Origin: an uncultured Planctomycetia bacterium
GTDB taxonomy: Bacteria; Omnitrophota; Gorgyraeia; CAYWPX01
Assembly (NCBI GenBank): GCA_964460615.1
Contig: CAYWPX010000002.1
Coordinates: forward strand, 7,220 to 71,219
DNA length: 64,000 nt
Reading direction: 5' to 3'
Part shown: positions 13,693 to 58,981 of the stretch, in pieces
Layout of the letters: the number at the start of each line of letters is the position of its first letter
Numbering within the stretch: the stretch's first letter is position 1
Program-made: the position numbers and the translations under genes
Notes under the pieces: model-generated
Databases searched by the model: none
What the model saw: the letters and a program-made list of their open reading frames with translations, nothing else
Told to the model about the DNA's origin: nothing

Positions 13693-13735
13693 GAAAAAGA
13701 AAAACCCTGATCGCATTAAGCAAACAGGGCTAAAG
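13693..13735 (-). terminator. Rho-independent terminator hairpin (CCCTGATCGCATTAAGCAAACAGGG followed by a T-run on the minus strand); near-identical copy at 57533-57575
   Basis: Inverted repeat CCCTG...CAGGG followed on the minus strand by TTTTTCTTTTTC; about 85% identical to the element 3' of tRNA-His. Confidence 0.5.
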
Positions 13736-43306: not shown

Positions 43307-43468
43307 TTTCTCCTCTTTTGTCTTTCCACCGCTGGTCTTCGGCAACCCAACTACCTTTCCAGCCTTAACACCTGGCTGACGAAGGCTTGTGGCTTTGCGC
43401 CCCACGATTTCTCGTGGTTTACCTTTATCGGCTATATATAGCTTACCATACTATCTTGCTTTTGTCAA
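43271..43468 (-). promoter_or_regulatory. structured leader/sRNA element upstream of corA: promoter plus antiterminator/terminator attenuator (M-box riboswitch-like)
   Basis: TTGACA (43468-43463 on the minus strand), a 17-nt spacer, then TAAGCT. Leader segment GCCGATAAAG (minus, 43433-43424) is exactly complementary to CTTTATCGGC inside the terminator hairpin (43293-43284). AGGTGTTAAGGCT and GGAAAGAC resemble M-box conserved blocks. Confidence 0.45.
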
Positions 43469-48156: not shown

Positions 48157-48822
48157 TTATTCCTCCTTTTTGGGTTTTATCTGTTTAAGCACTCCTACCT
48201 CGAAGGCCATCTCAGCCTTTTCGATCTTGAGCGTCAACGATTTTGCCTCTTCCTGAAGTTCCGGCGTCAAAGTATCTGTTTCCTTCGCGGTATTTATAAC
48301 ATCTTCTATCATCTTTCTAAGCTCGGGAAATGACGCATCTTGGCCTATGCCGTCTATGTGGTGATAAATATCGCCGACGACGCCCACGGGGGCTTGCGGA
48401 AGAAATCCGAGCGCCTGGAGTTTCGTTATCGCATCAATAAATACCTTGGCGGCAAATAGCTCTGCCTGCGCCCTTTCGGAAACCGACGCATCCTTGGATC
48501 TGGCGAGCTTCATCAGATGATCTCTGTGGATACGACCATACATTATCGTTTCACTGGCGAGATTCTTTCGCGCATCCGCATCTAAAGTATCCGCGTTACG
48601 CCTTATCACCCATTCGATATCCCTTTTAATAGTTTTTTCCGAACGTTTAAAGAACTGCGCCATAGCAGGCACGGCCATGCCCTCTCGAAGTAACGTATCA
48701 ACGCAAGCTTGCCGCTCTTCTTTGGTCAGGTTATCTACAGAAAACTCTCCGTCCTTTATCCGCTGAATAAGTGAAAACGTCGGCTGATCATTCTTATCCC
48801 GCAAAGAATCGTTATTTTGCAT
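48157..48822 (-). CDS. HTH-containing protein, possible terminase small subunit
   Basis: Sits immediately upstream of TerL with a 1-bp gap; HTH-like AMAQFFKRSEKTIKRDIEWV. Confidence 0.35.
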   Translation of the reverse strand: MQNNDSLRDKNDQPTFSLIQRIKDGEFSVDNLTKEERQACVDTLLREGMAVPAMAQFFKRSEKTIKRDIEWVIRRNADTLDADARKNLASETIMYGRIHRDHLMKLARSKDASVSERAQAELFAAKVFIDAITKLQALGFLPQAPVGVVGDIYHHIDGIGQDASFPELRKMIEDVINTAKETDTLTPELQEEAKSLTLKIEKAEMAFEVGVLKQIKPKKEE

Positions 48823-50119
48823 CGGTAGGCTCCTTCAGATATTTATCCACGACATTCTGCGAAACATTCTGCCTGCCAACATAGGCTATATATCGGCGAA
48901 TGATCCCGTCTATGTACTTTGGCTCTATCTCCATGCCGTAGCAACGTCTGCCAAGACTTTCTGCAGCTATGAGACTGGACCCACTGCCAAGAAACCCATC
49001 GAATATAACGTCGCCCCTTACAGAGCTATTGCGGATTGCTCTGACCGGAAGCAAAGTGCTCTTCTGCGTCGGATGAATCAAGTCTGACGCCTTGTCCCTT
49101 GCCACTTCCCAGAGATTACTCTCATTCGTAGGGCCATACCACTTGTGTGGGGCGTTCTTAAGCCATGAAAAAATGCAGAACTCTGTTTGCTGGTTGTAGT
49201 CTCCATATGAAATCGCAAACGTAGGCTTAGCCCAAGTAATGATTGTTGAGATATGGAACCCAAGTTCTTTTAGTACTTGGTGAACAAAATAGAACTTGGC
49301 ATGCCCATTCCAAATATAGGCTGATGCCCCTTCTTTTAAATAGCGTCTTATATTGCTTAAGACGCTTTTAATCCATGCCTCATATTCTTCCTCGCTTAAA
49401 TTATCTTTATACAGCGCGTCCCATCGCTTGGATTTCTTGGGTCGTGCTGTAAGATCGGGGCGATCTTGGGCAAGATAGAAACAGCCGTACGGAGGGTCTG
49501 TATGGAGGAGATCTATTTTCGCATCTTGCATTAACATATCCATATCACTTTCTAATGCAGAGTCCCCACACATAATGCGATGGTTGCCTAACTGAATAAT
49601 ATCTCCTCTCTTGGTGATAGGCTCCTTAATGGCGGCAACTGCGGCTTCAAAATCGAAGTCATCCGGGTCCTTAGGCTCACGTAGCCCTTCTAAAAACTTG
49701 TCTACTTCAGAAGAGTCAAAGCCGGATAAACTTAAGTCTATATCCGGAAGCTTGCTTAACTCTTCAATTAGAAGTGGCAGCTTATCAAAATCCCATTCGC
49801 CTTGTATGCGATTTAATGCCAAATTTAAAAGCTTTTCCTTCTCTATGGAAAGGTCAACGATGACCACGTCTACCTCTTTATAGCCAAGCTCAATCAAGGC
49901 GCGTAGCCGCTGATTCCCTCCCACGACATGCCATGTTCGCGAGTTAACAATAAGCGGCTCGTAGCACTCGTAGGTCTTAATACTCTCCACGAGCTTCCTA
50001 AATTCATTTTTTCTCATCTTGCGCGTATTGTACGGCGCAAACTTTACCTGCTCAATAGGCAACTTGTCTCTTTTCATGGGTATTTTCCTTTTATTTTTTG
50101 TGTAAAAAATAGTCTGCAA
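48812..50119 (-). CDS. ParB-like nuclease domain fused to DNA N6-adenine/N4-cytosine methyltransferase (beta-class)
   Basis: N-terminal ParB/Srx motif HVVGGNQRLRAL; MTase motif IV LLHTDPPYG precedes motif I VIFDGFLGSGSS. Confidence 0.75.
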   Translation of the reverse strand: MQTIFYTKNKRKIPMKRDKLPIEQVKFAPYNTRKMRKNEFRKLVESIKTYECYEPLIVNSRTWHVVGGNQRLRALIELGYKEVDVVIVDLSIEKEKLLNLALNRIQGEWDFDKLPLLIEELSKLPDIDLSLSGFDSSEVDKFLEGLREPKDPDDFDFEAAVAAIKEPITKRGDIIQLGNHRIMCGDSALESDMDMLMQDAKIDLLHTDPPYGCFYLAQDRPDLTARPKKSKRWDALYKDNLSEEEYEAWIKSVLSNIRRYLKEGASAYIWNGHAKFYFVHQVLKELGFHISTIITWAKPTFAISYGDYNQQTEFCIFSWLKNAPHKWYGPTNESNLWEVARDKASDLIHPTQKSTLLPVRAIRNSSVRGDVIFDGFLGSGSSLIAAESLGRRCYGMEIEPKYIDGIIRRYIAYVGRQNVSQNVVDKYLKEPTDAK

Positions 50120-50414
50120 TCGCTCTCTCTGGTGTCACTGAATCCGGGAAGTTCACTACCCAGTGAATGCCAGTAAATCCACGTGTCAGTATTAGGTAGT
50201 TTTCATACACGACACATTCGTGCTTAGCTCGTGGAGGGCAACATCTTTTTGACTGTCTTTCTTCTGTAGTTTCTTTGTCGAAGAAGATCCTATTGCATCG
50301 TATGCAGATGACAAGCTTGCCTTGTTCTAGCGTCGCAAGTTTATCTTCAAGCGATACTCCACCCAACCACAGCTCCAGTTTCTTACATTTAATAATTTTG
50401 TTTTCGGGCTCCAT
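50091..50414 (-). CDS. hypothetical small zinc-ribbon-like protein
   Basis: CxxC...CC cysteines (ICIRCNRIF...KRCCPP). Confidence 0.3.
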   Translation of the reverse strand: MEPENKIIKCKKLELWLGGVSLEDKLATLEQGKLVICIRCNRIFFDKETTEERQSKRCCPPRAKHECVVYENYLILTRGFTGIHWVVNFPDSVTPERAIADYFLHKK

Positions 50415-50716
50415 TTTTTATCACCTCCTTTCCAATAGCCTTTCTTTTGGGCGGAGACAATAAAAAAAGGGCCCAAAAGAAGATAGAAATTCACATATTC
50501 AATTTCCATCCTCAATTGGGCCCCGATGCGTTGTTCTGGAATATGGCCCGGTACTTCTACGACTTATTACTTGTAAAAAAATAGCCCTAGCTCTCATTCA
50601 TTCTCATCATCAATTTTGAGCTAGGACTACAATATTCGACGTCAGCTTCACCGTCAAATTAAGTGTATCACAAAATGTTGAAATGTCAATGGCATATCAA
50701 GGAAGATGCATATTAA

Positions 50717-51826
50717 CTATTTTTGCCAAAGCGCCCATAAATCATATTCTTGAAATGCTTTTTTATTATCCGTTAAAAAATGCAAAGATTGTCGCCGACC
50801 CTTAGCAGCAGATCCTGCTTCATGAATTGTTAAAATCTTCCATCCCGTATCCTTCAAAGATTGTCTTAGTATATATACTGGATCGCTTTTCCTTGAATTG
50901 AGACTCCCGAAACGAACTATTAGCCGGGCGTTTTTCTCGCACTTGGTTCCCACATTTTCCCATACTTTTTTAAGCTCTGAACAAAAAATATCAACACTCG
51001 AATGATCAATTTGTCCACACGACGAATAATCAACTTCCGCCTTTCCACCAATAAACCATAACCTAAGCCATTGATCGGGTACATATGTACGCATGCCATA
51101 ATAAGGAGGCGATGTTATGACCCAATTAAATTTGTTCTGAATTTGAGAATATACCTTGGATTCACTACTATCTCCTAGAATAGCTTCCCCTTGTGCTTTA
51201 ATTTCATTACAATAATAACGTTCGGCTCTTCTTTTTATTATTTCAATCACATCTACTTTATTTGGCTGTAAATCCAATCTTTCCCAATATTTTATAGCAT
51301 AGTCGGGCTTGGGCGCATATGTTCTAGGACATTGATTCGATAAATAGCTGGGGAACGATTTAGTAACGGGCCCGTGAAGGGCGCCCATAATTATAGCGCG
51401 TAAAGCTCTTCGTGTTTCAGAAACGCAATTTTTCATTAGCCCTTCTCTTAAGCGGCACATAATTGGCAATACACTCTTATGATATGCTAAGCTCCAAAAT
51501 TCATTGTCTGGCATCTCAGCTGGTTTTTCAATTTCGTCCAGGATTCTTTTTGCAGAATTTACAATCATTGCCGGAGATGTATTAGCTAACTTTGCTTGAG
51601 TTATTGCAACTGCAGTAGGATTACTATCTATTCCTATTGATGATAATTTTAAAGAACGGCTGGCATAATTTGTTGTTCCTCGTCCGCAAAAAGGATCTAA
51701 AACCCATTGTCCTTCTTTTGCATATTTCTTTAATATAGAAAAAGGGAAAACTAGCGGAAACATTGTAAAGTAGGGACAAATCGCATTAAGCGTATAATCT
51801 TTTTTTTGTTTAATCAGCTTGCTCAA
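50717..51826 (-). CDS. DNA methyltransferase (motif I DPFCGRGTT near N-terminus, motif IV TSPPYYG about 190 aa later)
   Basis: An SAM-binding FxGxG-type motif and an SPPY catalytic motif (SPPY/F is common in N4-cytosine MTases). Its start overlaps the HerA-like gene stop by 4 bp (ATGA). Confidence 0.7.
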   Translation of the reverse strand: MSKLIKQKKDYTLNAICPYFTMFPLVFPFSILKKYAKEGQWVLDPFCGRGTTNYASRSLKLSSIGIDSNPTAVAITQAKLANTSPAMIVNSAKRILDEIEKPAEMPDNEFWSLAYHKSVLPIMCRLREGLMKNCVSETRRALRAIIMGALHGPVTKSFPSYLSNQCPRTYAPKPDYAIKYWERLDLQPNKVDVIEIIKRRAERYYCNEIKAQGEAILGDSSESKVYSQIQNKFNWVITSPPYYGMRTYVPDQWLRLWFIGGKAEVDYSSCGQIDHSSVDIFCSELKKVWENVGTKCEKNARLIVRFGSLNSRKSDPVYILRQSLKDTGWKILTIHEAGSAAKGRRQSLHFLTDNKKAFQEYDLWALWQK

Positions 51827-53946
51827 GATGACTTCTTTCCTGTTTTCACATAAGTTTTATTATCACGCTGAGAGTTTCTAAATGAATGCCATGCTTCATT
51901 TTGTGTTCCAAAAATGGTATTTAACGCCTTGGGAACAAGGGCATAAGCTATCTCATCTTTATTTTCAAGAGTATCGGGTAATTTTGAAAGGAGAAACGCC
52001 TTAATAGCCCCGTATGCTGCTCCATCGCCTTTTATTGCATCTATTAATTTCTTATCGTTCTTTAGCGCTTCGACAGCGCTGTTTTCATACACTTCTTTTG
52101 GGTCTGTTACCTTCTCGCTTTCAGCGGATGCAGAAATAGCATCAGTGCCTATTTCTGATGTCGATGCTTTCTTTTCAACCTTTATTGCCTTCTGAAGCAT
52201 TTCATCGAATTTCTTTTTTAATTCCTTCGCATATGTATCAACTGCTGCTTTATTATAGTGAGGATCTAACGTTTTAAATAAGTACTCAAAAGAAAGTACA
52301 CGAATTGGCAAAGGATAGGGTGTACCACCTTCTGAACTCCAAAACACACCTTGTCCTTTAATAGGCTCGTTTAAGAGTCCACTTAAAAGATCTTCACTAA
52401 AATGTGCATTGGCCTTTTTTGTTGCTGACAGATCCGCCATTGATAACAAGTGAAATATAAACCAATTGTCGCCCTGGCTTAAAATCTCCACGGGGATACT
52501 TCCTGGCTGTTGAGTAATCAATAAAGCTCCTAAATCATACTTTCTACCTTCCTTTACCCAAGTTATATACGGCTCCGCAGAGGTAGCGTTTTCATTTAAA
52601 ACTGACTGAGCTTCTTCAACAACTGCAATAGTAGGTATCGTTTTTGGTTCTGCTTCGGTAAACTCCTGTTGATTTCTATCGAATATTCTTCGTAAAATTA
52701 AACCAGATAGAATTAATGCTTGCCCTCCCCTCATCTGGGAGACATCCACAATGCACAATTTACCTTCACCAAGAGCATGTATTAATAGGTCCATCATCTG
52801 GCTAGTTCTATCATGGATCATTCTGATTATGGCAGTCATATTAGCGCGGGCAGCCAATGCTTCAGCTTCTTGGCTATCTTTAAGTTCTAGAATACGGCTA
52901 ACATCTTCTAATGCGGCAGAGTTGCCGTTATTATCAATCAGATTAACTAATTCTTCCCATCGATTCGAAGGTAGCCCTTTTAATTTTCTTACATTCTGCT
53001 GCTCCTGCTTATCTGGACTCAACGCGATCGCAACAACATCTGCTGGCTTTAATCTTCTGATGTCCAATTTAATCCCACCCGCTACAAAAGACTGATAGAA
53101 TTTACTTTTGTTTTGCCTTGAAGTAAATACAACGACTTTATCCTGCAATGCCGGGACATCGCATAATCCAGGCCTACCCTTATCATCTGGCCAAAAATAT
53201 TCTCCATCGGGATCAAAAATTACTGTGCCTACAGGGACTTTCTTATTTCCTTTTTTTGTAACTGTTGGGGTTGATTCATATAGTTTGCTAAAAAGCAATT
53301 TGTTAAGATTTGATTTACCAAAACCAGCCCTTGCAAAAACAAAGCTTCTACGCGAGACTAGTTTATCGATGGGAAATTTTATCAATACTTCGGGGGCTTT
53401 GAGTTGCATCCAATCTTTTACTTCTAATACTTTACTTTTCTCAGCGTAAATATATTCTCCTAAAGCAAAATGTCCAATACTCGCTCCGTCAATATTATGG
53501 CTGGCTATTTCCTTTAAAACGTCTTCGGATAAGAAAGCTACTTTGCTTCCAACATGCGGGAGACGCCTATGCGAAGGTACAAACGTAAGTTTACCATGAG
53601 AATTAGTTCGAACTACTCCTAAAACTCTTATATCAACTCGATACTTAAGATATTGCTCACGTAAATCTTCTGGCACATCACGTTTATCCCGGAGCGCCCT
53701 AATATTAAATTCTTCACCGGAGTCAGAAGAAAGCTTTCCTTCTGCGCAAAAAGACGTTATTCTTCCTAAGACAGCTTCCTCAGCAGTTTCAAGCTGAACT
53801 AGAAGAAATTGCCCATGCATAGGTAAATTTTGGAATTCATTCTTATAAGGAAGGATTAAATCCGCATGAAATTCCAATCCACCTTGTGTAAACCCCTTAA
53901 AGACACCCACAACTTGGTCGGTTGGGAACAATTCTATTTTTGACAT
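51823..53946 (-). CDS. HerA/FtsK-type ATPase (HerA-like helicase)
   Basis: Walker A FARAGFGKSN, Walker B IAVVEEAQ, and downstream LLITQQPGSI, a TQ(R)P-type motif characteristic of the HerA/FtsK clade. An N-terminal barrel-like region precedes the ATPase core. Confidence 0.55.
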   Translation of the reverse strand: MSKIELFPTDQVVGVFKGFTQGGLEFHADLILPYKNEFQNLPMHGQFLLVQLETAEEAVLGRITSFCAEGKLSSDSGEEFNIRALRDKRDVPEDLREQYLKYRVDIRVLGVVRTNSHGKLTFVPSHRRLPHVGSKVAFLSEDVLKEIASHNIDGASIGHFALGEYIYAEKSKVLEVKDWMQLKAPEVLIKFPIDKLVSRRSFVFARAGFGKSNLNKLLFSKLYESTPTVTKKGNKKVPVGTVIFDPDGEYFWPDDKGRPGLCDVPALQDKVVVFTSRQNKSKFYQSFVAGGIKLDIRRLKPADVVAIALSPDKQEQQNVRKLKGLPSNRWEELVNLIDNNGNSAALEDVSRILELKDSQEAEALAARANMTAIIRMIHDRTSQMMDLLIHALGEGKLCIVDVSQMRGGQALILSGLILRRIFDRNQQEFTEAEPKTIPTIAVVEEAQSVLNENATSAEPYITWVKEGRKYDLGALLITQQPGSIPVEILSQGDNWFIFHLLSMADLSATKKANAHFSEDLLSGLLNEPIKGQGVFWSSEGGTPYPLPIRVLSFEYLFKTLDPHYNKAAVDTYAKELKKKFDEMLQKAIKVEKKASTSEIGTDAISASAESEKVTDPKEVYENSAVEALKNDKKLIDAIKGDGAAYGAIKAFLLSKLPDTLENKDEIAYALVPKALNTIFGTQNEAWHSFRNSQRDNKTYVKTGKKSS

Positions 53947-53957
53947 AAATAACTCCT

Positions 53958-55088
53958 TTAGTATCGCTTTTGCGACGGGTCGGTATCTTGAAGATGAAAT
54001 GTATCTAATTTAGGTGATTCCTTACCTAACACATTACGGATAGCATCAAAAATTTGATCTTGCAATATATCAAAATCGAAATCAACTAATGCAGCGTTTT
54101 CATGTGCTTTTTGAAGGCACAGAGGATAGAATGGTATAGGAAAACCATTAATCGCATCTGCGAGTAGATGCCCAAGAATTGTTTGAGCCTGTGGAGTTTG
54201 AGGCATAAAAATATCCACTGGCCAAATCGGATCTCTGGGACTATTCCCAAATTTAACAAAATACATTTTACCCGCAACAAATTTATTTACTTCTCCTTCG
54301 GTGTCTTCACCACGGGCATATTCGGACCACACATATGCCTTCTCTTCAATCTCCTGTGGTATTTCAACATAGGCAGGATAATCACAGTCAAGTATATTCT
54401 CCAGTGCCATTGTTAGACGATAGCGAGATAATACCTTGCTGTGTTTTGCGAGACCAACCAGAAATATCTTCCTGCGTTTTTCTTTTTGTTGTTTTTCAAT
54501 CATCTTACCTAGATTTTCTCTATATTTCTTAAAAAGGTCTTTTGCAAATACTTTGCTACGCAGCAATCCATCGAAAACAATCAATGTATCTGTGCCAAAG
54601 TCTTTTTTCATAACTGAATAAAGAATCGCCCACTCTACAAGCTCTCTATAAACCTGAACCCAACTAATGCTAACCGGCTGATCATTATCGTTACTTCTGA
54701 TCATATGACTTAATTCGGTTAACTGTTTTACTCCTAAATCATACATCATTTCACCAAGGGCTGTTTTAGGGGTACCATTTGCGTTGAACTGTCGAGCGGT
54801 TAACTGTGAAACCTTGGTAGTAGGCGTAATAGCCTCTAAGCAATATTCGTTGTTACTAGAGTCTACAACCCTAATAATCTGAACCAAAAAGGGATCGAAC
54901 TGGACTTGATTATTTCCACCATCGGTTCCTACGAGTGAAATGGATGTGGTGCTTCTTGATTGGATTTTGCGAACGTTGGCTTTTAAAGGCTGGATTTCTT
55001 TTCTTAATTGATCGAGTATTGCTTTATCTGATTTTATGCGCTCTGATATTTCACTTTTAAGTAGCTTTTGACTGTTTGGGTCTATCAT
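53958..55088 (-). CDS. NurA-like nuclease (candidate)
   Basis: SLVGTDGGNNQ and IVFDGLLRS resemble the two DG(S/L) catalytic-aspartate motifs of NurA. A 12-bp gap to the HerA-like gene with a GGAG RBS gives the canonical nurA-herA order. Confidence 0.4.
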   Translation of the reverse strand: MIDPNSQKLLKSEISERIKSDKAILDQLRKEIQPLKANVRKIQSRSTTSISLVGTDGGNNQVQFDPFLVQIIRVVDSSNNEYCLEAITPTTKVSQLTARQFNANGTPKTALGEMMYDLGVKQLTELSHMIRSNDNDQPVSISWVQVYRELVEWAILYSVMKKDFGTDTLIVFDGLLRSKVFAKDLFKKYRENLGKMIEKQQKEKRRKIFLVGLAKHSKVLSRYRLTMALENILDCDYPAYVEIPQEIEEKAYVWSEYARGEDTEGEVNKFVAGKMYFVKFGNSPRDPIWPVDIFMPQTPQAQTILGHLLADAINGFPIPFYPLCLQKAHENAALVDFDFDILQDQIFDAIRNVLGKESPKLDTFHLQDTDPSQKRY

Positions 55089-55226
55089 TGGCCAACCTGG
55101 TTATTTATCATAATTATCTTATATTATACAGCTTATAGCACCATTCGCAATCGAAAAATACCTCTCTATTTACCTTGCTATATCTCTGATTGTATGGCCC
55201 TATTGACCTAAGGAAAGGAGGCCAAA

Positions 55227-55670
55227 ATGAGCGAGATAAATGCACTTAAAAACGCGTCGGCCGAAGAGCTACTTAGGCAATATAAAGAGCTCTATGGCGA
55301 GGATGCTGCCAGTAGCCATAAGCTTTATTTATGGCGAAAGGTCGCCTATAAGCTGCAAGAGCGCGAACATGGCTGCCTATCAGCCAAGGCTAAGAATCGG
55401 CTAAAGAGCCTTATCGAGGAATACGATCCGATAAATAATAAGGCGCTAAGGCCTGACAACCCTGTAGTAAGCCAGACCGCTCCCGGCAAAGATAAACGTA
55501 TACCGATTCCGGGAACGGTGATAACAAAGGATTATAAAGGCTCAAACTACAAGGTCAAAGTCTTAGAAGCAGGCTTCGAGTATGACGGAAAGATCTATAA
55601 GACGCTATCAGCCATTGCTAAGGAAATAACCGGGGCACATTGGAACGGATATCTGTTCTTTAATTTGTAG
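55227..55670 (+). CDS. DUF2924-family protein (typical partner of large serine recombinases)
   Basis: 147 aa, AAGGAGG RBS, sits directly upstream of the recombinase with an 8-bp gap. Confidence 0.5.
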   Translation: MSEINALKNASAEELLRQYKELYGEDAASSHKLYLWRKVAYKLQEREHGCLSAKAKNRLKSLIEEYDPINNKALRPDNPVVSQTAPGKDKRIPIPGTVITKDYKGSNYKVKVLEAGFEYDGKIYKTLSAIAKEITGAHWNGYLFFNL

Positions 55671-55678
55671 GAGGTTTT

Positions 55679-57274
55679 ATGGAAAAGGTTGAAAAGAAAA
55701 AGGTACGCTGCGCTATTTATACACGTGTATCGACATCAGAAGGATTGGAACAAGAGTTTACTTCCCTAGACAATCAGCGCGAGTCCGCTGAAAGCTACAT
55801 CGCCAGCCAGAAGTCAGAAGGATGGACGGCTTTGCCAGAACGTTATGACGATCCTGGCTACACTGGCGCTAATACTGACCGCCCAGCCCTGCAAAAGCTC
55901 ATGGCTGATATCAAAGAAGGTAAGATTGACTCAGTGGTAACTTATAAAGTAGATAGGCTTTCGCGATCACTGCTCGATTTTAGCCAACTCCTAGAGTTCT
56001 TTGAGCAACATAGCGTAACATTCGTTTCTGTAACGCAGCATTTTAACACCAATACTTCAATGGGTCGGCTTACCTTGAATATACTCCTCTCCTTCGCACA
56101 GTTCGAGCGCGAGATCATCTCAGAGCGCACACGCGACAAGATGGGCGCAGCCAAGAAAAAAGGCAAATGGATCGGCGGCAGACCGCCTTTAGGCTATGAT
56201 TTAGATAAGGTTAACCATAAGCTGGTTATAAACCCGAAGGAAGCTAATCTTGTTAAAGAGATCTTCGGCCTTTACTTAGAAAAGCGCTCTCTTCTATCGG
56301 TAGCAATAGCGCTGAATAGCAAGAATCATACCACAAAAAGCTATACAGCTTCTGATGGCAAGAAGTTTGGCAGTGTAAAGTTTAAAAGCACAAGCGTTCA
56401 GCTAATAGTTAAAAATCCGCTATATATCGGCAAAGTAAGCTACCACGGACAGATTTATCCAGGCGAGCAGGAACGTATAATATCCGATGAGATATTCCAA
56501 AAAGCCCACCAAATACTGGCTGATAACCGACGAGAACGCAAAGTGGCTGGCATTACGAGCAACGTGGGCCTCCTTAACGGCATCTTGCGCTGTAAGGCCT
56601 GCAATAGCACCATGTACTACATCTACAGCATGAAAGGCAAAAACAAGTACTATTATTACCTTTGTATGAACGCGCAGAAACGAGGTTATAAAAGCTGCCC
56701 CACGCGCTTAGTCGCAGCCCAAGTAATGGAGAATAGATTTATGGAGTTCTTGAGGTCGATATCCAAAGACCCGAGGATCGAACCTAAAGCCTGGGAAAAG
56801 TTAACCCTCGAAGAAAAGATACCTATCCTTAAATCAATCGCCAAGGTTGCGCATTACGACGCTCATAACGAAACCTTAGAGATAGTGCTGCATAAGGGCG
56901 ATAGAAGCCACGAATTTGCGCTTAAACTGGCCGAGTTAAAGCATATACCGCATCATCGCAGACAGCTCGAGGTTAGCAAGGAACCGCTTGTACGCCAAAA
57001 CCTGATCCTAGGATACCAGATAGACGCGATTTCCAAAGAACGAGGCCGAAGCTTGCGAGAGATCGCAAATTGGCTCGGCATGAACCACCCAAGGCTCTGC
57101 CAGATCGTCAACATGCTGCTCCTCTCGCCTAAAATACAAGAGGAGATCCTCCTCTCCGATAACAAGGCGCTATTCAACATCCCCGAATACAAACTACGCG
57201 ATGTAATCGCAGAGGTCAGCTGGGATAAGCAGCAGGAAGTCTGGAATAAGCTCGTCAAATCCTGCCAAAACTGA
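55679..57274 (+). CDS. large serine recombinase (resolvase/invertase catalytic domain, recombinase domain, zinc ribbon)
   Basis: VRCAIYTRVSTSEGLEQEFTSLDNQRE...DRLSRSL carries the catalytic Ser; CKACNST...C zinc ribbon; 531 aa. Confidence 0.85.
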   Translation: MEKVEKKKVRCAIYTRVSTSEGLEQEFTSLDNQRESAESYIASQKSEGWTALPERYDDPGYTGANTDRPALQKLMADIKEGKIDSVVTYKVDRLSRSLLDFSQLLEFFEQHSVTFVSVTQHFNTNTSMGRLTLNILLSFAQFEREIISERTRDKMGAAKKKGKWIGGRPPLGYDLDKVNHKLVINPKEANLVKEIFGLYLEKRSLLSVAIALNSKNHTTKSYTASDGKKFGSVKFKSTSVQLIVKNPLYIGKVSYHGQIYPGEQERIISDEIFQKAHQILADNRRERKVAGITSNVGLLNGILRCKACNSTMYYIYSMKGKNKYYYYLCMNAQKRGYKSCPTRLVAAQVMENRFMEFLRSISKDPRIEPKAWEKLTLEEKIPILKSIAKVAHYDAHNETLEIVLHKGDRSHEFALKLAELKHIPHHRRQLEVSKEPLVRQNLILGYQIDAISKERGRSLREIANWLGMNHPRLCQIVNMLLLSPKIQEEILLSDNKALFNIPEYKLRDVIAEVSWDKQQEVWNKLVKSCQN

Positions 57275-57532: not shown

Positions 57533-57575
57533 ACAAAGGAAAAGCCCTGATCGCGTTAAGTAATCAGGGCTATAA
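57533..57575 (-). terminator. Rho-independent terminator 3' of tRNA-His (copy of the element at 13693-13735)
   Basis: GCCCTGAT-tacttaacgcg-ATCAGGGC followed on the minus strand by TTTTCCTTTGTCTTT. Confidence 0.5.
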
Positions 57576-57608: not shown

Positions 57609-57686
57609 TGGGGTGGGTAACCGGATTTGAACCGGCGACGTCTTGAGCCACAGTCAAGTGCTCTGCCAGGCTGAGCTATACCCACC
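57609..57686 (-). tRNA. tRNA-His (GUG)
   Basis: Minus strand: G-1 then GUGGGUA acceptor; anticodon loop CUGUGGC (GUG); T-loop GGTTCAAATCC; discriminator C73; encoded CCA. Cloverleaf folds by hand. Confidence 0.85.
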
Positions 57687-57855
57687 TTATTAACTTACTA
57701 TGCGAAGTCCGCCATTTTTATGGCAGGCTGCCTGCCCGCCAATGTTTGTGGCGGGAGCTATACCCACCGTAAAACAGTTACCAGTATACAGTGGACAGTT
57801 AACAGTCAAAGCTTTTTTAAACTGTCAACTGTTGTCTGTGAACTGTAAACAAAAT

Positions 57856-57932
57856 TGGTCGGGGCGCTCAGATTCGAACTGAGGACCCCTTGCTCCCAAA
57901 GCAAGTGCGCTAGCCAGCTGCGCTACGCCCCG
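57856..57932 (-). tRNA. tRNA-Pro (UGG)
   Basis: CGGGGCG acceptor paired with CGCCCCG; anticodon stem CTTGC/GCAAG with loop TTTGGGA (UGG); T-loop TTCGAAT; ACCA end. Confidence 0.85.
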
Positions 57933-58062
57933 ACAAATAATTATTTCAGCGTGTCCCTTTAGGGACTACGCCCCTATAATGCAGTTTTAAGTCTTAAGTT
58001 CTAAGTTGTAAGTTTATATTTTGGTCTTACTACTTACAGCTAACAACTTAGAGCTGTATTTA

Positions 58063-58376
58063 TGGCGCGCCCGACCTGACTCGAACAGGTGACCCTCTGC
58101 TTAGCTTACCGCACCGAATTACTTCGGCTCCCAATAATACTTTGGGATTGTGGTCTGGACTTTCTCTTAGGCATTTCAGCCTCGCCGTGTAAAGTCTCTA
58201 CACTTCCCCACATTAATTAGGGGTAGCTCGGTATTGTCCTGAATCACAGGATGTTCACCGAATTAGCGGCGTCCACTTCATAAGTTCAATTCCCTATGAA
58301 GGCTCCCAACGTTGTCCCACGCTTACTTTTCATAAGCTTAGGCTCCTACTGAAGGCAGATGCTCTATCCAACTGAG
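58063..58376 (-). tRNA. tRNA-Arg (UCU) interrupted by a 237-nt intron in the anticodon loop
   Basis: 5' exon GCGCCCGTAGCTCAGTTGGATAGAGCATCTGCCTT (58376-58342) and 3' exon CTAAGCAGAGGGTCACCTGTTCGAGTCAGGTCGGGCGCGCCA (58104-58063) join to a perfect 77-nt cloverleaf with anticodon loop CU-UCU-AA. Confidence 0.65.
58105..58341 (-). ncRNA. group I (self-splicing) intron candidate inserted between tRNA positions 34 and 35
   Basis: The 5' exon ends in U and the intron ends in G (GGTAAG). R-like element GTAGAGACTTTACAC and S-like element AAAGTCCAGACC can form P7 (GACTT/AAGTC) with a P8-like hairpin AGGCTGAAATGCCT between them. No ORF inside. Confidence 0.5.
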
Positions 58377-58459
58377 CTACGGGCGCACAAAAACAGTACA
58401 CTGTTCTCAGTACACAGTATACAGTTCTTTCTGTGTACTTTGTACATTGTACAGTGTAC

Positions 58460-58981
58460 TTATTTATAATATCTCGCTGTCACTTCATCCCACTTATTCT
58501 GGGATTTAAGGATTATGTCAATGACTTCTCTGGCAGCACCTCTGCCGCCGGATTTTTCAGTCGTGTAATGGGTGATCTCTTTTACCTCATTAACTGAGTT
58601 TGGGACCGAAACCGCCAATCCGACCCTTTTTAAAATCGGTATATCTATAAGATCATCCCCGATAAAACAAACTTCATCAGGGGACAGTCTTAATTTCTTT
58701 ATAAGTTTTTCAAAAATCTTTAATTTATCATGATGATTCTGAAAAACATACTTAACTTTAAGTTCTTTGGCTCTGTTTCTTACTATCTTTGAAGCCTTGG
58801 CGGTAATAATGGCAACTTTTATTCCTGCCCTATGAAGCAGGATTATGCCAAGTCCGTCCTGTACATCGAAAAATTTTAATTCATCCCCGTAATTGCCGTG
58901 AATGATCCTGCCGTCAGTAAGAACTCCATCAATATCAAATATAACCAGTTTTATCTTCTTAGCTCTATCATCAATTGTCAT
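58460..58981 (-). CDS. kdsC: 3-deoxy-D-manno-octulosonate 8-phosphate phosphatase (HAD family)
   Basis: LVIFDIDGVLTDGRI HAD motif I; size and context fit. Confidence 0.75.
   Translation of the reverse strand: MTIDDRAKKIKLVIFDIDGVLTDGRIIHGNYGDELKFFDVQDGLGIILLHRAGIKVAIITAKASKIVRNRAKELKVKYVFQNHHDKLKIFEKLIKKLRLSPDEVCFIGDDLIDIPILKRVGLAVSVPNSVNEVKEITHYTTEKSGGRGAAREVIDIILKSQNKWDEVTARYYK

What the first reader, a model, noticed from the sequence alone, without database searches (positions are those of the whole stretch)
58063..58376. tRNA-Arg(UCU) split by a 237-nt group-I-like intron in the anticodon loop
The two exons reconstitute a perfect 77-nt tRNA with anticodon UCU. The insertion is exactly between positions 34 and 35, the classic site of bacterial tRNA group I introns such as cyanobacterial tRNA-Leu(UAA). 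The 5' exon ends in U and the intron ends in G. P7-like R/S elements (AGAGACTT ... AAGTCC) and a P8-like hairpin are present, and the intron has no ORF. Group I introns in bacterial tRNA-Arg(UCU) are uncommon, and this one sits directly beside an integrative element.
Basis: seen in the sequence. Interest (0 to 1): 0.7.

Follow-up and report, generated by a model that had tools for sequence, protein, structure and literature searches.

The report
Group I intron in tRNA-Arg gene
An arginine transfer-RNA gene is interrupted in its anticodon loop by a 247-base self-splicing (group I) intron of a widespread, already catalogued bacterial type; its one unusual feature is a 40-base extra hairpin that repeats the intron's splice-site guide sequence.

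Summary
On the minus strand, a 77-nt tRNA-Arg(UCU) gene (58386..58063) is split between anticodon positions 34 and 35 by an intron.

Rfam's Intron_gpI model does not detect it. That model does hit clear homologues in other bacteria at 24-50 bits.

A covariance model built only from 39 relatives hits the window core at 118.9 bits (E = 1e-29). A hand-drawn P1-P9 structure with the P3/P7 pseudoknot is 92.8% paired across 29 diverse family members, with compensatory changes in 34 of 54 pairs. The 5' splice-site U·G wobble, the terminal G, the bulged-A P7 and the GNRA L9 loop are all present.

This class (Arg-UCU, site 34/35, subgroup IC3) is already tabulated for Bacillota, Bacteroidota and Campylobacterota. 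I found it in at least 106 species genomes and 77 viral contigs.

The closest relatives are Omnitrophota MAGs. Only the window lineage carries a 40-nt insertion in the P1 loop, which starts with a second copy of the guide motif GGAGCCU.

The neighbouring integrative element is associated with tRNA-His, not with the intron. Splicing itself is inferred, not shown.

The parts
58352..58386 (-). 5' exon of tRNA-Arg(UCU): acceptor 5' strand, D arm, anticodon stem 5' strand, and loop C32 U33 U34. It ends in U(-1).
   Evidence: ARAGORN -i; coordinates.
58105..58351 (-). Group I intron, 247 nt, with no ORF. It begins with C and ends with the terminal G at 58105.
58063..58104 (-). 3' exon: C35 U36 A37 A38, anticodon stem 3' strand, variable loop, T arm, acceptor 3' strand, discriminator G, and encoded CCA.
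58351..58354 (-). P1 5' strand: exon C(-3) U(-2) U(-1) plus intron C(+1). The 5' splice site lies after the U·G wobble.
   Evidence: The U·G pair is kept in 29/29 sequences.
58303..58306 (-). Distal guide sequence GGAG (intron 46-49). It sits directly 5' of P2, as in every relative, and is the canonical P1 3' strand.
   Evidence: GGAG is invariant in A1 and A6. Pairs are given.
58307..58346 (-). 40-nt insertion in the P1 loop (intron 6-45): GGAGCCUAAGCUUAUGAAAAGUAAGCGUGGGACAACGUUG. It opens with a second copy of GGAGCCU (proximal guide at 58346..58343). It forms its own 10-bp hairpin, CCUAAGCUUA/UAAGCGUGGG, with one A·G mismatch.
   Evidence: It is absent from all 13 Omnitrophota-type relatives aligned in A6 and from the 26 other family members in A1. 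L221, an independent assembly, covers about the first 41 nt of the intron and carries the insertion sequence there.
58274..58302 (-). P2 hairpin: 10 bp with a bulged U and an 8-nt loop (GAAUUGAA).
   Evidence: All 10 pairs show compensatory changes across the family.
58266..58271 (-). P3 5' strand (CGCCGC).
   Evidence: It pairs with 58188..58183. Five of six pairs covary. The sixth is C·A in the whole Omnitrophota lineage.
58228..58261 (-). P4 (58261..58256 with 58233..58228) enclosing P5 (UCCUG/CAGGA, 58251..58237).
   Evidence: P4 is 99-100% paired, with U-A/A-U and G-C/U-A swaps. Coordinates.
58202..58227 (-). P6 hairpin: G·U, C-G and U-A at the base, then CCCC/GGGG.
   Evidence: The base pairs swap between C-G and G-C, and between U-A and A-U, among lineages.
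58191..58198 (-). P7 5' strand, G[A]GACUUU, with a bulged A. This is the guanosine-binding helix.
   Evidence: It pairs with 58163..58157 (AAAGUCC). P7 is 96-100% paired, crosses P3 to form the pseudoknot, and has one A-U/U-A swap.
58183..58188 (-). P3 3' strand (ACGGCG).
58169..58182 (-). P8 hairpin AGGC-UGAAAU-GCCU.
   Evidence: It is 99% paired, and 3 of 4 pairs covary.
58157..58163 (-). P7 3' strand (AAAGUCC), preceded by J8/7 (AAGAG).
58108..58154 (-). P9.0 (ACCAC/GCGGU, with one A·C mismatch specific to the window) enclosing P9 (UCCCAA/UUGGGA) and P9a (GCCGAA-GUAA-UUCGGU, a GNRA loop).
   Evidence: All six P9a pairs covary.
58151..58277 (-). Span matched end to end by model R1, the core model built from relatives only.
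   Evidence: 118.9 bits, E = 1.2e-29, model positions 1-132 of 132.

Best explanation
This is an intact tRNA-Arg(UCU) gene carrying a small, ORF-less group I intron of the IC3-like bacterial tRNA type, inserted between anticodon nucleotides 34 and 35. It belongs to a vertically maintained, widely distributed Arg(UCU)-34/35 intron family. Inferred mechanism: after transcription, the last three exon bases and the first intron base (CUU|c) pair with the intron's GGAG guide to form P1, with a U·G wobble at the splice site. Free guanosine bound in P7 attacks the 5' splice site. The terminal G (58105) then takes the same pocket. A short P10 (UUGG with CUAA) aligns the 3' exon, and exon ligation restores the anticodon loop CUUCUAA. 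This yields the tRNA that reads AGA and AGG. The 40-nt addition lies in the P1 loop, a position where other family members also carry extra hairpins, so it most likely sits outside the catalytic core as a tolerated peripheral extension. The anatomy, the homology and the covariation are shown. Splicing activity, and which of the two GGAG copies acts as guide, are inferred.
For:: ARAGORN -i finds a 77-nt tRNA-Arg(tct) with a 247-nt intron, and the spliced product is a perfect cloverleaf; a covariance model of the core, built from 39 relatives without the window, hits 58151-58277(-) full length at 118.9 bits, E = 1.2e-29; on 29 diverse sequences the P1-P9 structure is 92.8% paired, against 35-41% when partners are slid. 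34 of 54 pairs have compensatory changes, and 0 of 500 shuffles reach any of the five measures; within the Omnitrophota-type lineage (14 sequences) the structure is 97.6% paired with 21 covarying pairs, and the window's only private mismatch is one A·C in P9.0; the window keeps all 63 columns that are invariant across the family. These include GGAG, GUAGAGACU, AGUCCAGAC and the terminal G; a published table lists Arg(TCT) 34/35 introns, subgroup IC3 (one row IB3), with the same core motifs. Rfam Intron_gpI scores homologues at up to 50.2 bits (gathering score 50); the split gene is conserved in at least 106 species genomes and in about 13 distinct Omnitrophota-type relatives, next to tRNA-Pro in all seven relatives scanned for tRNAs. 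AGA makes up 27% of Arg codons in the window's long ORFs, so the tRNA is needed; there is no ORF in the intron.
Against: Rfam RF00028 gives no hit on the window even at E<=10. No transcript or splicing data exist. The 40-nt insertion adds a second GGAG that could compete for the 5' splice site. The two alternative P1 folds differ by only 1.2 kcal/mol. There is one A·C mismatch in P9.0. Whether the genome holds another, uninterrupted tRNA-Arg(UCU) gene is unknown, because only 64 kb is visible.
Confidence: 0.88

Rival explanations
1. Same intron, different working architecture. P1 forms with the proximal GGAG (58346..58343), giving the 4-nt loop AGUA, the same P1 architecture as in relative L086 (4-nt loop AAUA). 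The inserted hairpin then acts as a new P2, and the old guide plus P2 becomes a P2.1-like element. Alternatively, the two guides alternate and splicing depends on which one wins.
For: The window's 5' end cagUAGGAGCC is almost identical to caaUAGGAGCC in L086. The proximal P1 fold is slightly more stable locally, -27.2 against -26.0 kcal/mol, and would form first during transcription. The insertion resembles a guide-P2 unit (GGAGCCU, hairpin, GUGGGAC). Its alignment to the real unit beats 96% of shuffles. An independent assembly carries the sequence over the part it covers.
Against: In all 41 other aligned family members (39 in A2, plus L122 and L128 read), GGAG is followed directly by P2 (GGAGCC, or GGAGCU/GGAGUG in a few), so the distal copy keeps the family's P1-P2 geometry. 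Other members (L003, L004, L011, L115) carry plain hairpins in the same P1 loop, which favours the loop-extension reading. The duplication signal is weak (p about 0.04). No second lineage with the insertion was found, so covariation cannot be tested.
Confidence: 0.3
2. The intron is a decaying, splicing-dead relic and the locus is a tRNA pseudogene. AGA decoding would then be supplied by another gene elsewhere in the genome.
For: There is no Rfam hit. The window carries a lineage-specific 40-nt insertion and an A·C mismatch in P9.0. Copy number in the genome is unknown.
Against: All family-invariant positions are intact. Both exons are perfect. The structure is 97.6% paired in the lineage. The insertion sits in a loop that tolerates insertions in other members. 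The score of 118.9 bits against a model of presumably functional relatives is not what a decayed copy would give.
Confidence: 0.07
3. The insertion is not a group I intron but another kind of element: a group II intron fragment, a protein-spliced (bulge-helix-bulge) tRNA intron, or a miniature transposable element.
For: Only the absence of an Rfam hit.
Against: The full P1-P9 set with the P3/P7 pseudoknot, U·G, the terminal G and the G-binding P7 is supported by covariation. Homologues are recognised by RF00028. The site is 34/35, not the 37/38 typical of protein-spliced introns. The inserted sequence has no second copy in the window.
Confidence: 0.01

Closest known systems
tRNA-Arg(UCU) 34/35 group I introns catalogued in complete bacterial genomes (Nakagawa et al. 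2026, mSystems, PMC13011429, Table S5). Williams 2020 (bioRxiv 10.1101/2020.01.27.920355) expanded tRNA intron types from 4 to 21.
   Same: The host tRNA, the insertion site, U(-1) and the terminal G are the same. So are the core motifs (uAGGAGCC guide, GUGGA, UCGGUG...ACCGAG, GUAGAGACU, CUGAAAUG, AGUCCAGACC, GGUAAG|CUAAG). It has the same P1-P9 layout and, like the short members, no ORF.
   Different: The published rows I read are from Bacillota, Bacteroidota and Campylobacterota. The table's only Omnitrophota entry is an fMet 33/34 intron. The window's lineage has shorter P5 and P6, UGUAGAGACUUUAC instead of CGUAGAGACUAUAC, and the private 40-nt P1-loop insertion with a duplicated guide.
Cyanobacterial and plastid tRNA-Leu(UAA) group I intron (site 34/35, subgroup IC3)
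   Same: The insertion site is the same, between anticodon positions 34 and 35, after a U. The subgroup and small size are the same. The P7/P3/P8 core sequences are very similar (rows; text).
   Different: The host tRNA differs, so the guide sequence differs. In the tRNA-Leu rows read, P8 is much longer than the 4-bp P8 here. Self-splicing of that intron is demonstrated according to my background knowledge, but was not checked here.
Azoarcus pre-tRNA-Ile(CAU) group I intron (IC3; structures reviewed in PMC13168695)
   Same: It is a compact ORF-less IC3 ribozyme in a bacterial anticodon loop. From my own knowledge of the Azoarcus intron, it also has a three-base exon part of P1 and an L9 GNRA tetraloop. 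I did not align the two sequences here.
   Different: In the classical Ile2 and Arg introns the site is 36/37, after the third anticodon base. The host tRNA differs, and I know of no P1-loop insertion in that intron.
tRNA-Arg(CCU) 36/37 group I introns of Cyanobacteriota and Alphaproteobacteria (the latter from my own knowledge)
   Same: They are arginine tRNA hosts with the IC3 subgroup.
   Different: The isoacceptor differs (CCU, not UCU). The insertion site (36/37) and the guide sequence differ too. This is a separate intron lineage.

Membership tests
Group I intron | P1 helix in which the last exon base is a U paired as a U·G wobble with the internal guide sequence | tested here: met
   The pairs are C-G, U-A, U·G and c-G (58354..58351 with 58306..58303). 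U·G is kept in 29/29 and 14/14 sequences.
Group I intron | Terminal guanosine as the last intron nucleotide | tested here: met
   G at 58105. This column is invariant in A1, A2 and A6.
Group I intron | Conserved core helices P3-P8 and P4-P6, with the P3/P7 pseudoknot, supported by covariation | tested here: met
   92.8% of cells are paired, against 35-41% when partners are slid. 34 of 54 pairs show compensatory change. P3, P4, P6 and P8 all covary. The lineage-specific test gives 97.6%.
Group I intron | Guanosine-binding P7 with a G-C pair next to a bulged A | tested here: met
   G[A]GACUUU pairs with AAAGUCC. The sequence is invariant across the family apart from one A-U/U-A swap.
Group I intron | Match to Rfam RF00028 (Intron_gpI) at its gathering score of 50 bits | tested here: not met
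   There is no hit on the window at the gathering score or at E<=10. The same model scores family members L082 at 50.2, L034 at 43.2, L036 at 39.3, L062 at 34.7 and L047 at 24.2 bits, and also misses the Omnitrophota relatives L086 and L117. This is a sensitivity limit of a model whose seed holds no bacterial sequences (Williams 2020).
Group I intron | Guanosine-dependent self-splicing | not testable with these tools
   It needs in-vitro transcription and splicing, or RNA-seq.
Arg(UCU) 34/35 tRNA intron family | Significant match to a covariance model built from family members only | tested here: met
   Model R1 scores 118.9 bits, E = 1.2e-29, full length.
Arg(UCU) 34/35 tRNA intron family | Host gene tRNA-Arg with anticodon UCU, and an intron between positions 34 and 35 | tested here: met
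   The same holds in 105 + 1 genome loci and 77 viral loci.
Subgroup IC3 | Assignment by subgroup-specific covariance models (GISSD-type), as used in PMC13011429 | not tested
   Those models are not available here. Homologues in Table S5 are labelled IC3, with one labelled IB3. The window shares their compact layout, with no P5abc and a GNRA L9.

The most novel reading that the evidence does not exclude
The 40-nt insertion is a diverged tandem duplication of the guide-plus-P2 module, giving the ribozyme two competing internal guide sequences. The promoter-proximal copy would form first during transcription. Exchange between the two P1 helices could then act as a folding checkpoint or a condition-dependent brake on maturation of the tRNA that reads AGA and AGG. 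In effect, the intron's 5' end would hold a built-in switch.
Probability: 0.1. Interest if true: 0.45.

Novelty: new member of a known kind. Interest (0 to 1): 0.22.

Why it matters
For annotation, default tRNA finders and Rfam both miss this gene. The genome would therefore appear to lack the tRNA for AGA, which makes up 27% of its arginine codons. The same blind spot affects Omnitrophota relatives.

For biology, it adds an Omnitrophota-type lineage to a known, broadly distributed tRNA-Arg(UCU) intron family. It also supplies a natural variant with a duplicated guide sequence, which could serve as a simple test case for how group I ribozymes choose their 5' splice site. Nothing here changes what is known about group I introns.

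Tried and rejected
1. Rfam was run on the whole window at gathering score and on 57900-58550 at E<=10. Neither gave an Intron_gpI hit. I did not take this as evidence against the intron, because the same model scores homologues at up to 50.2 bits and misses other Omnitrophota-type members.

It was replaced by a 132-position core model.

3. I looked for relatives with the 40-nt insertion, to test covariation in the new hairpin. None was found among 17 Omnitrophota-type metagenome loci, 120 genome loci or 80 viral loci. Only L221, probably the same population, carries it. There is no other copy of the inserted sequence in the window.

4. I tested whether the insertion is a duplication of the guide-P2 unit. 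Its alignment score exceeds 96% of shuffles, which is suggestive but not conclusive.

5. I considered the intron being mobile through a homing endonuclease. No ORF longer than 43 aa is present. The roughly 600-650-nt members of the family, said to carry PD-(D/E)XK genes, are a different size class.

6. I looked for attachment sites of the neighbouring element. The 34-nt repeat at 57539-57572 and 13699-13732 is a terminator-like hairpin. The genes between look chromosomal, so I did not accept it as an att pair.

It is inferred from the nearest intron relatives, which are Omnitrophica MAGs.

Full report
**Observation**

The region was read on both strands. The minus strand carries GCGCCCGTAGCTCAGTTGGATAGAGCATCTGCCTT, then 247 nt, then CTAAGCAGAGGGTCACCTGTTCGAGTCAGGTCGGGCGCGCCA.

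ARAGORN in default mode reports only tRNA-His (57609-57685) and tRNA-Pro (57856-57932). With introns allowed, it calls tRNA-Arg(tct), 77 nt, with a 247-nt intron between gcctt and ctaag. The joined exons fold into a perfect cloverleaf with A20, C35, discriminator G and an encoded CCA.

Exact limits are as follows:
- 5' exon: 58386..58352
- Intron: 58351..58105
- 3' exon: 58104..58063

The upper one (58376) is 10 nt short, which explains the stated 237 nt instead of 247.

Only one junction places a U before the 5' splice site and a G at the intron's end. No ORF longer than 43 aa overlaps the intron.

**Is it a group I intron?**

Rfam 15 gives no Intron_gpI (RF00028) hit, either at the gathering score on the whole window or at E<=10 on 651 nt around the site.

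A published catalogue (PMC13011429, Table S5) lists Arg(TCT) 34/35 introns in Bacillota, Bacteroidota and Campylobacterota, nearly all typed IC3. Their sequences share long motifs with the window.

A pattern taken from P7, P7' and the 3' junction was scanned over one genome per species. In 105 of them a script recovered a valid split tRNA-Arg(UCU) with the intron at 34/35, and L117 was added by hand. Intron lengths run from 191 to about 670 nt, with two longer outliers (1,695 and 2,230 nt).

RF00028 scores some of these homologues at 50.2, 43.2, 39.3, 34.7 and 24.2 bits. It misses the two Omnitrophica MAG copies, L086 and L117, just as it misses the window. Williams (bioRxiv 10.1101/2020.01.27.920355) notes that none of the Rfam seed sequences is bacterial, and that a bacterial tRNA-intron model raised the yield by 20%. 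The missing Rfam hit therefore reflects the model, not the sequence.

**Independent tests**

*Homology.* A covariance model of the core (P3 to P7', 132 positions, 22 pairs) was built from 39 relatives without the window. It matches window 58151-58277 (minus strand) end to end at 118.9 bits, E = 1.2e-29. The next hit in 64 kb scores 13 bits.

*Structure.* I drew P1, P2, P3, P4, P6, P7 (crossing P3), P8, P9.0 and P9a on a 29-sequence alignment spanning several phyla, then counted pairs:
- 92.8% of cells are standard pairs, against 35-41% when partners are slid by 1-3 columns.
- 34 of 54 pairs show changes on both sides.
- None of 500 shuffles reaches any of the five measures.
- P2, P3, P8 and P9a covary at nearly every pair. 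P7 is almost invariant in sequence, as expected for the guanosine site.

Within the window's own lineage (14 sequences), 97.6% of cells pair and 21 pairs covary. The C·A at the inner end of P3 is shared by all 14. That leaves one private mismatch in the window, an A·C in P9.0.

The window keeps all 63 columns that are invariant in the family alignment.

*Thermodynamics.* The minimum-free-energy fold of the precursor recovers P2, P4, P5, P6, P8, P9 and P9a on its own, with z = -4.9.

**Anatomy in window coordinates**

| Element | Position | Sequence or note |
|---|---|---|
| P1 | 58354..58351 with 58306..58303 | C-G, U-A, U·G, c-G |
| P2 | 58302..58274 | |
| P3 | 58271..58266 with 58188..58183 | |
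| P4 | 58261..58256 with 58233..58228 | |
| P5 | 58251..58237 | |
| P6 | 58227..58202 | |
| P7 | 58198..58191 with 58163..58157 | G[A]GACUUU / AAAGUCC |
| P8 | 58182..58169 | |
| P9.0 | 58154..58150 with 58112..58108 | |
| P9 | 58147..58129 | |
| P9a | 58128..58113 | GUAA loop |
| Terminal G | 58105 | |

A short P10 (UUGG with the 3' exon CUAA) is possible. The base before GGAG can pair with the second 3'-exon base in 24 of 29 sequences.

**What is unusual**

Relative to every relative examined, the window has 40 extra nucleotides in the P1 loop (intron 6-45, 58346..58307). Those relatives are 13 distinct Omnitrophota-type introns of 191-218 nt and the wider family.

The insertion begins with a second GGAGCCU, the guide plus the first bases of P2. 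It then forms a 10-bp hairpin and ends in GUGGGAC, which resembles the GUGGAC that follows P2. Its similarity to the genuine guide-P2 unit beats 96% of shuffles, so a diverged tandem duplication is plausible but not proven.

Local folds with the proximal or the distal GGAG in P1 differ by only 1.2 kcal/mol. Other family members (L003, L004, L011, L115) carry unrelated hairpins at the same place, so the P1 loop is a tolerated expansion site.

I favour the distal copy as the working guide, at roughly 2:1, because it alone keeps the invariant GGAG-P2 junction.

The insertion is not an assembly artefact. An independent low-coverage assembly (L221, ENA ERZ4216102) contains it over the stretch it covers, about the first 41 nt of the intron.

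**Function**

Splicing is inferred, not shown. The arguments for it are:
- The exons are intact.
- The core is conserved and covaries.
- The split gene persists next to tRNA-Pro in related contigs.
- AGA makes up 27% of arginine codons in the window's long ORFs.

Whether a second tRNA-Arg(UCU) gene exists elsewhere in the genome cannot be seen from 64 kb.

**Context**

Upstream, on the minus strand, lie KDO-pathway genes: kdsB-, kdsA-, kdsD- and kdsC-like, plus a DUF1846 gene. Downstream lie tRNA-Pro and tRNA-His. Beyond them are a convergent large serine recombinase with a DUF2924 partner, then NurA- and HerA-like genes and a ParB-methylase gene.

However, 58%-identical DUF2924/recombinase pairs sit next to the 3' side of tRNA-His in two related contigs, L127 and L128. 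In L128 the recombinase lies about 7.5 kb from the tRNA-Arg gene. The element family is thus associated with tRNA-His, and its closeness to the intron here looks incidental.

The nearest intron relatives are Omnitrophica MAGs, which suggests the window's origin.

**Comparison and novelty**

The feature works like the classical IC3 tRNA introns and passes every structural membership test I could run. The Rfam score threshold is the exception, and it fails for a documented reason. The class Arg(UCU) 34/35 is already in the literature. The catalogue's only Omnitrophota entry is an fMet 33/34 intron, so the lineage may be newly noted. That is a matter of sampling.

Verdict: a new member of a known kind, with a minor structural variant (the duplicated guide in the P1 loop) that a ribozyme specialist might find mildly interesting. 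Interest 0.22.

Noticed in passing
IMG/VR loci L138-L217 (for example L174:4432-4713, L147:6864-7147, L196:7055-7331): The same intron pattern occurs in 82 viral contigs. In 77 of the 80 loci checked it lies in a valid intron-split tRNA-Arg(UCU). Several of these sit inside phage-style tRNA arrays of 16-19 tRNA genes. Phage-encoded tRNA-Arg(UCU) genes therefore often carry this group I intron, which could be a route for its spread.
   Followed up: partly
window 48812-57274; L127:2768-4815; L128:1094-3150: A DUF2924 protein and a large serine recombinase, with NurA- and HerA-like genes and a ParB-domain DNA methylase, lie next to the 3' side of tRNA-His(GUG). 58%-identical DUF2924/recombinase pairs occupy the same position beside tRNA-His in two related metagenome contigs. 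This suggests an integrative element family linked to this site. Its limits were not found.
   Followed up: partly
window 57539-57572 and 13699-13732: A 34-nt repeat, 88% identical, forms a terminator-like hairpin (GCCCTGAT...ATCAGGGC followed by a T-run on the minus strand). It occurs downstream of tRNA-His and again 44 kb away. The genes between look chromosomal, so it is probably a shared terminator or REP-like element rather than an att pair.
   Followed up: partly
window 58390-58465, 57995-58050, 57774-57846: Each spacer around the three tRNA genes holds a long imperfect palindrome with arms of 19-35 nt. Two of them are rich in ACAGT/GTACA repeats. One overlaps a terminator-like site at 58415..58396 just upstream of tRNA-Arg. 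Their function is unknown; processing or transcription signals are possible.
   Followed up: no
window 57755-57771: A 17-nt copy, 94% identical, of the 5' end of tRNA-His (GAGCTATACCCACC..) lies 82 nt upstream of the gene on the same strand. It may be a remnant of a past rearrangement or integration.
   Followed up: no
window 43337-43432 (-): A c-di-GMP-I-GGC riboswitch aptamer (RF03167) scores 62.8 bits against a gathering score of 59.
   Followed up: no
L086, L117 and window 58105-58351: Rfam RF00028 fails on all three Omnitrophota-type Arg(UCU) introns, while it scores other members of the same family at 24-50 bits. Default ARAGORN also skips the split gene. Genomes of this lineage will therefore look as if they lack tRNA-Arg(UCU) in standard annotation.
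   Followed up: yes
L123:10232-10633 (-): ARAGORN calls a tmRNA gene (tag peptide AKPLTVLPTGWIRDLVG) on a related Omnitrophota-type contig, about 7 kb from its intron-bearing tRNA-Arg.
   Followed up: no
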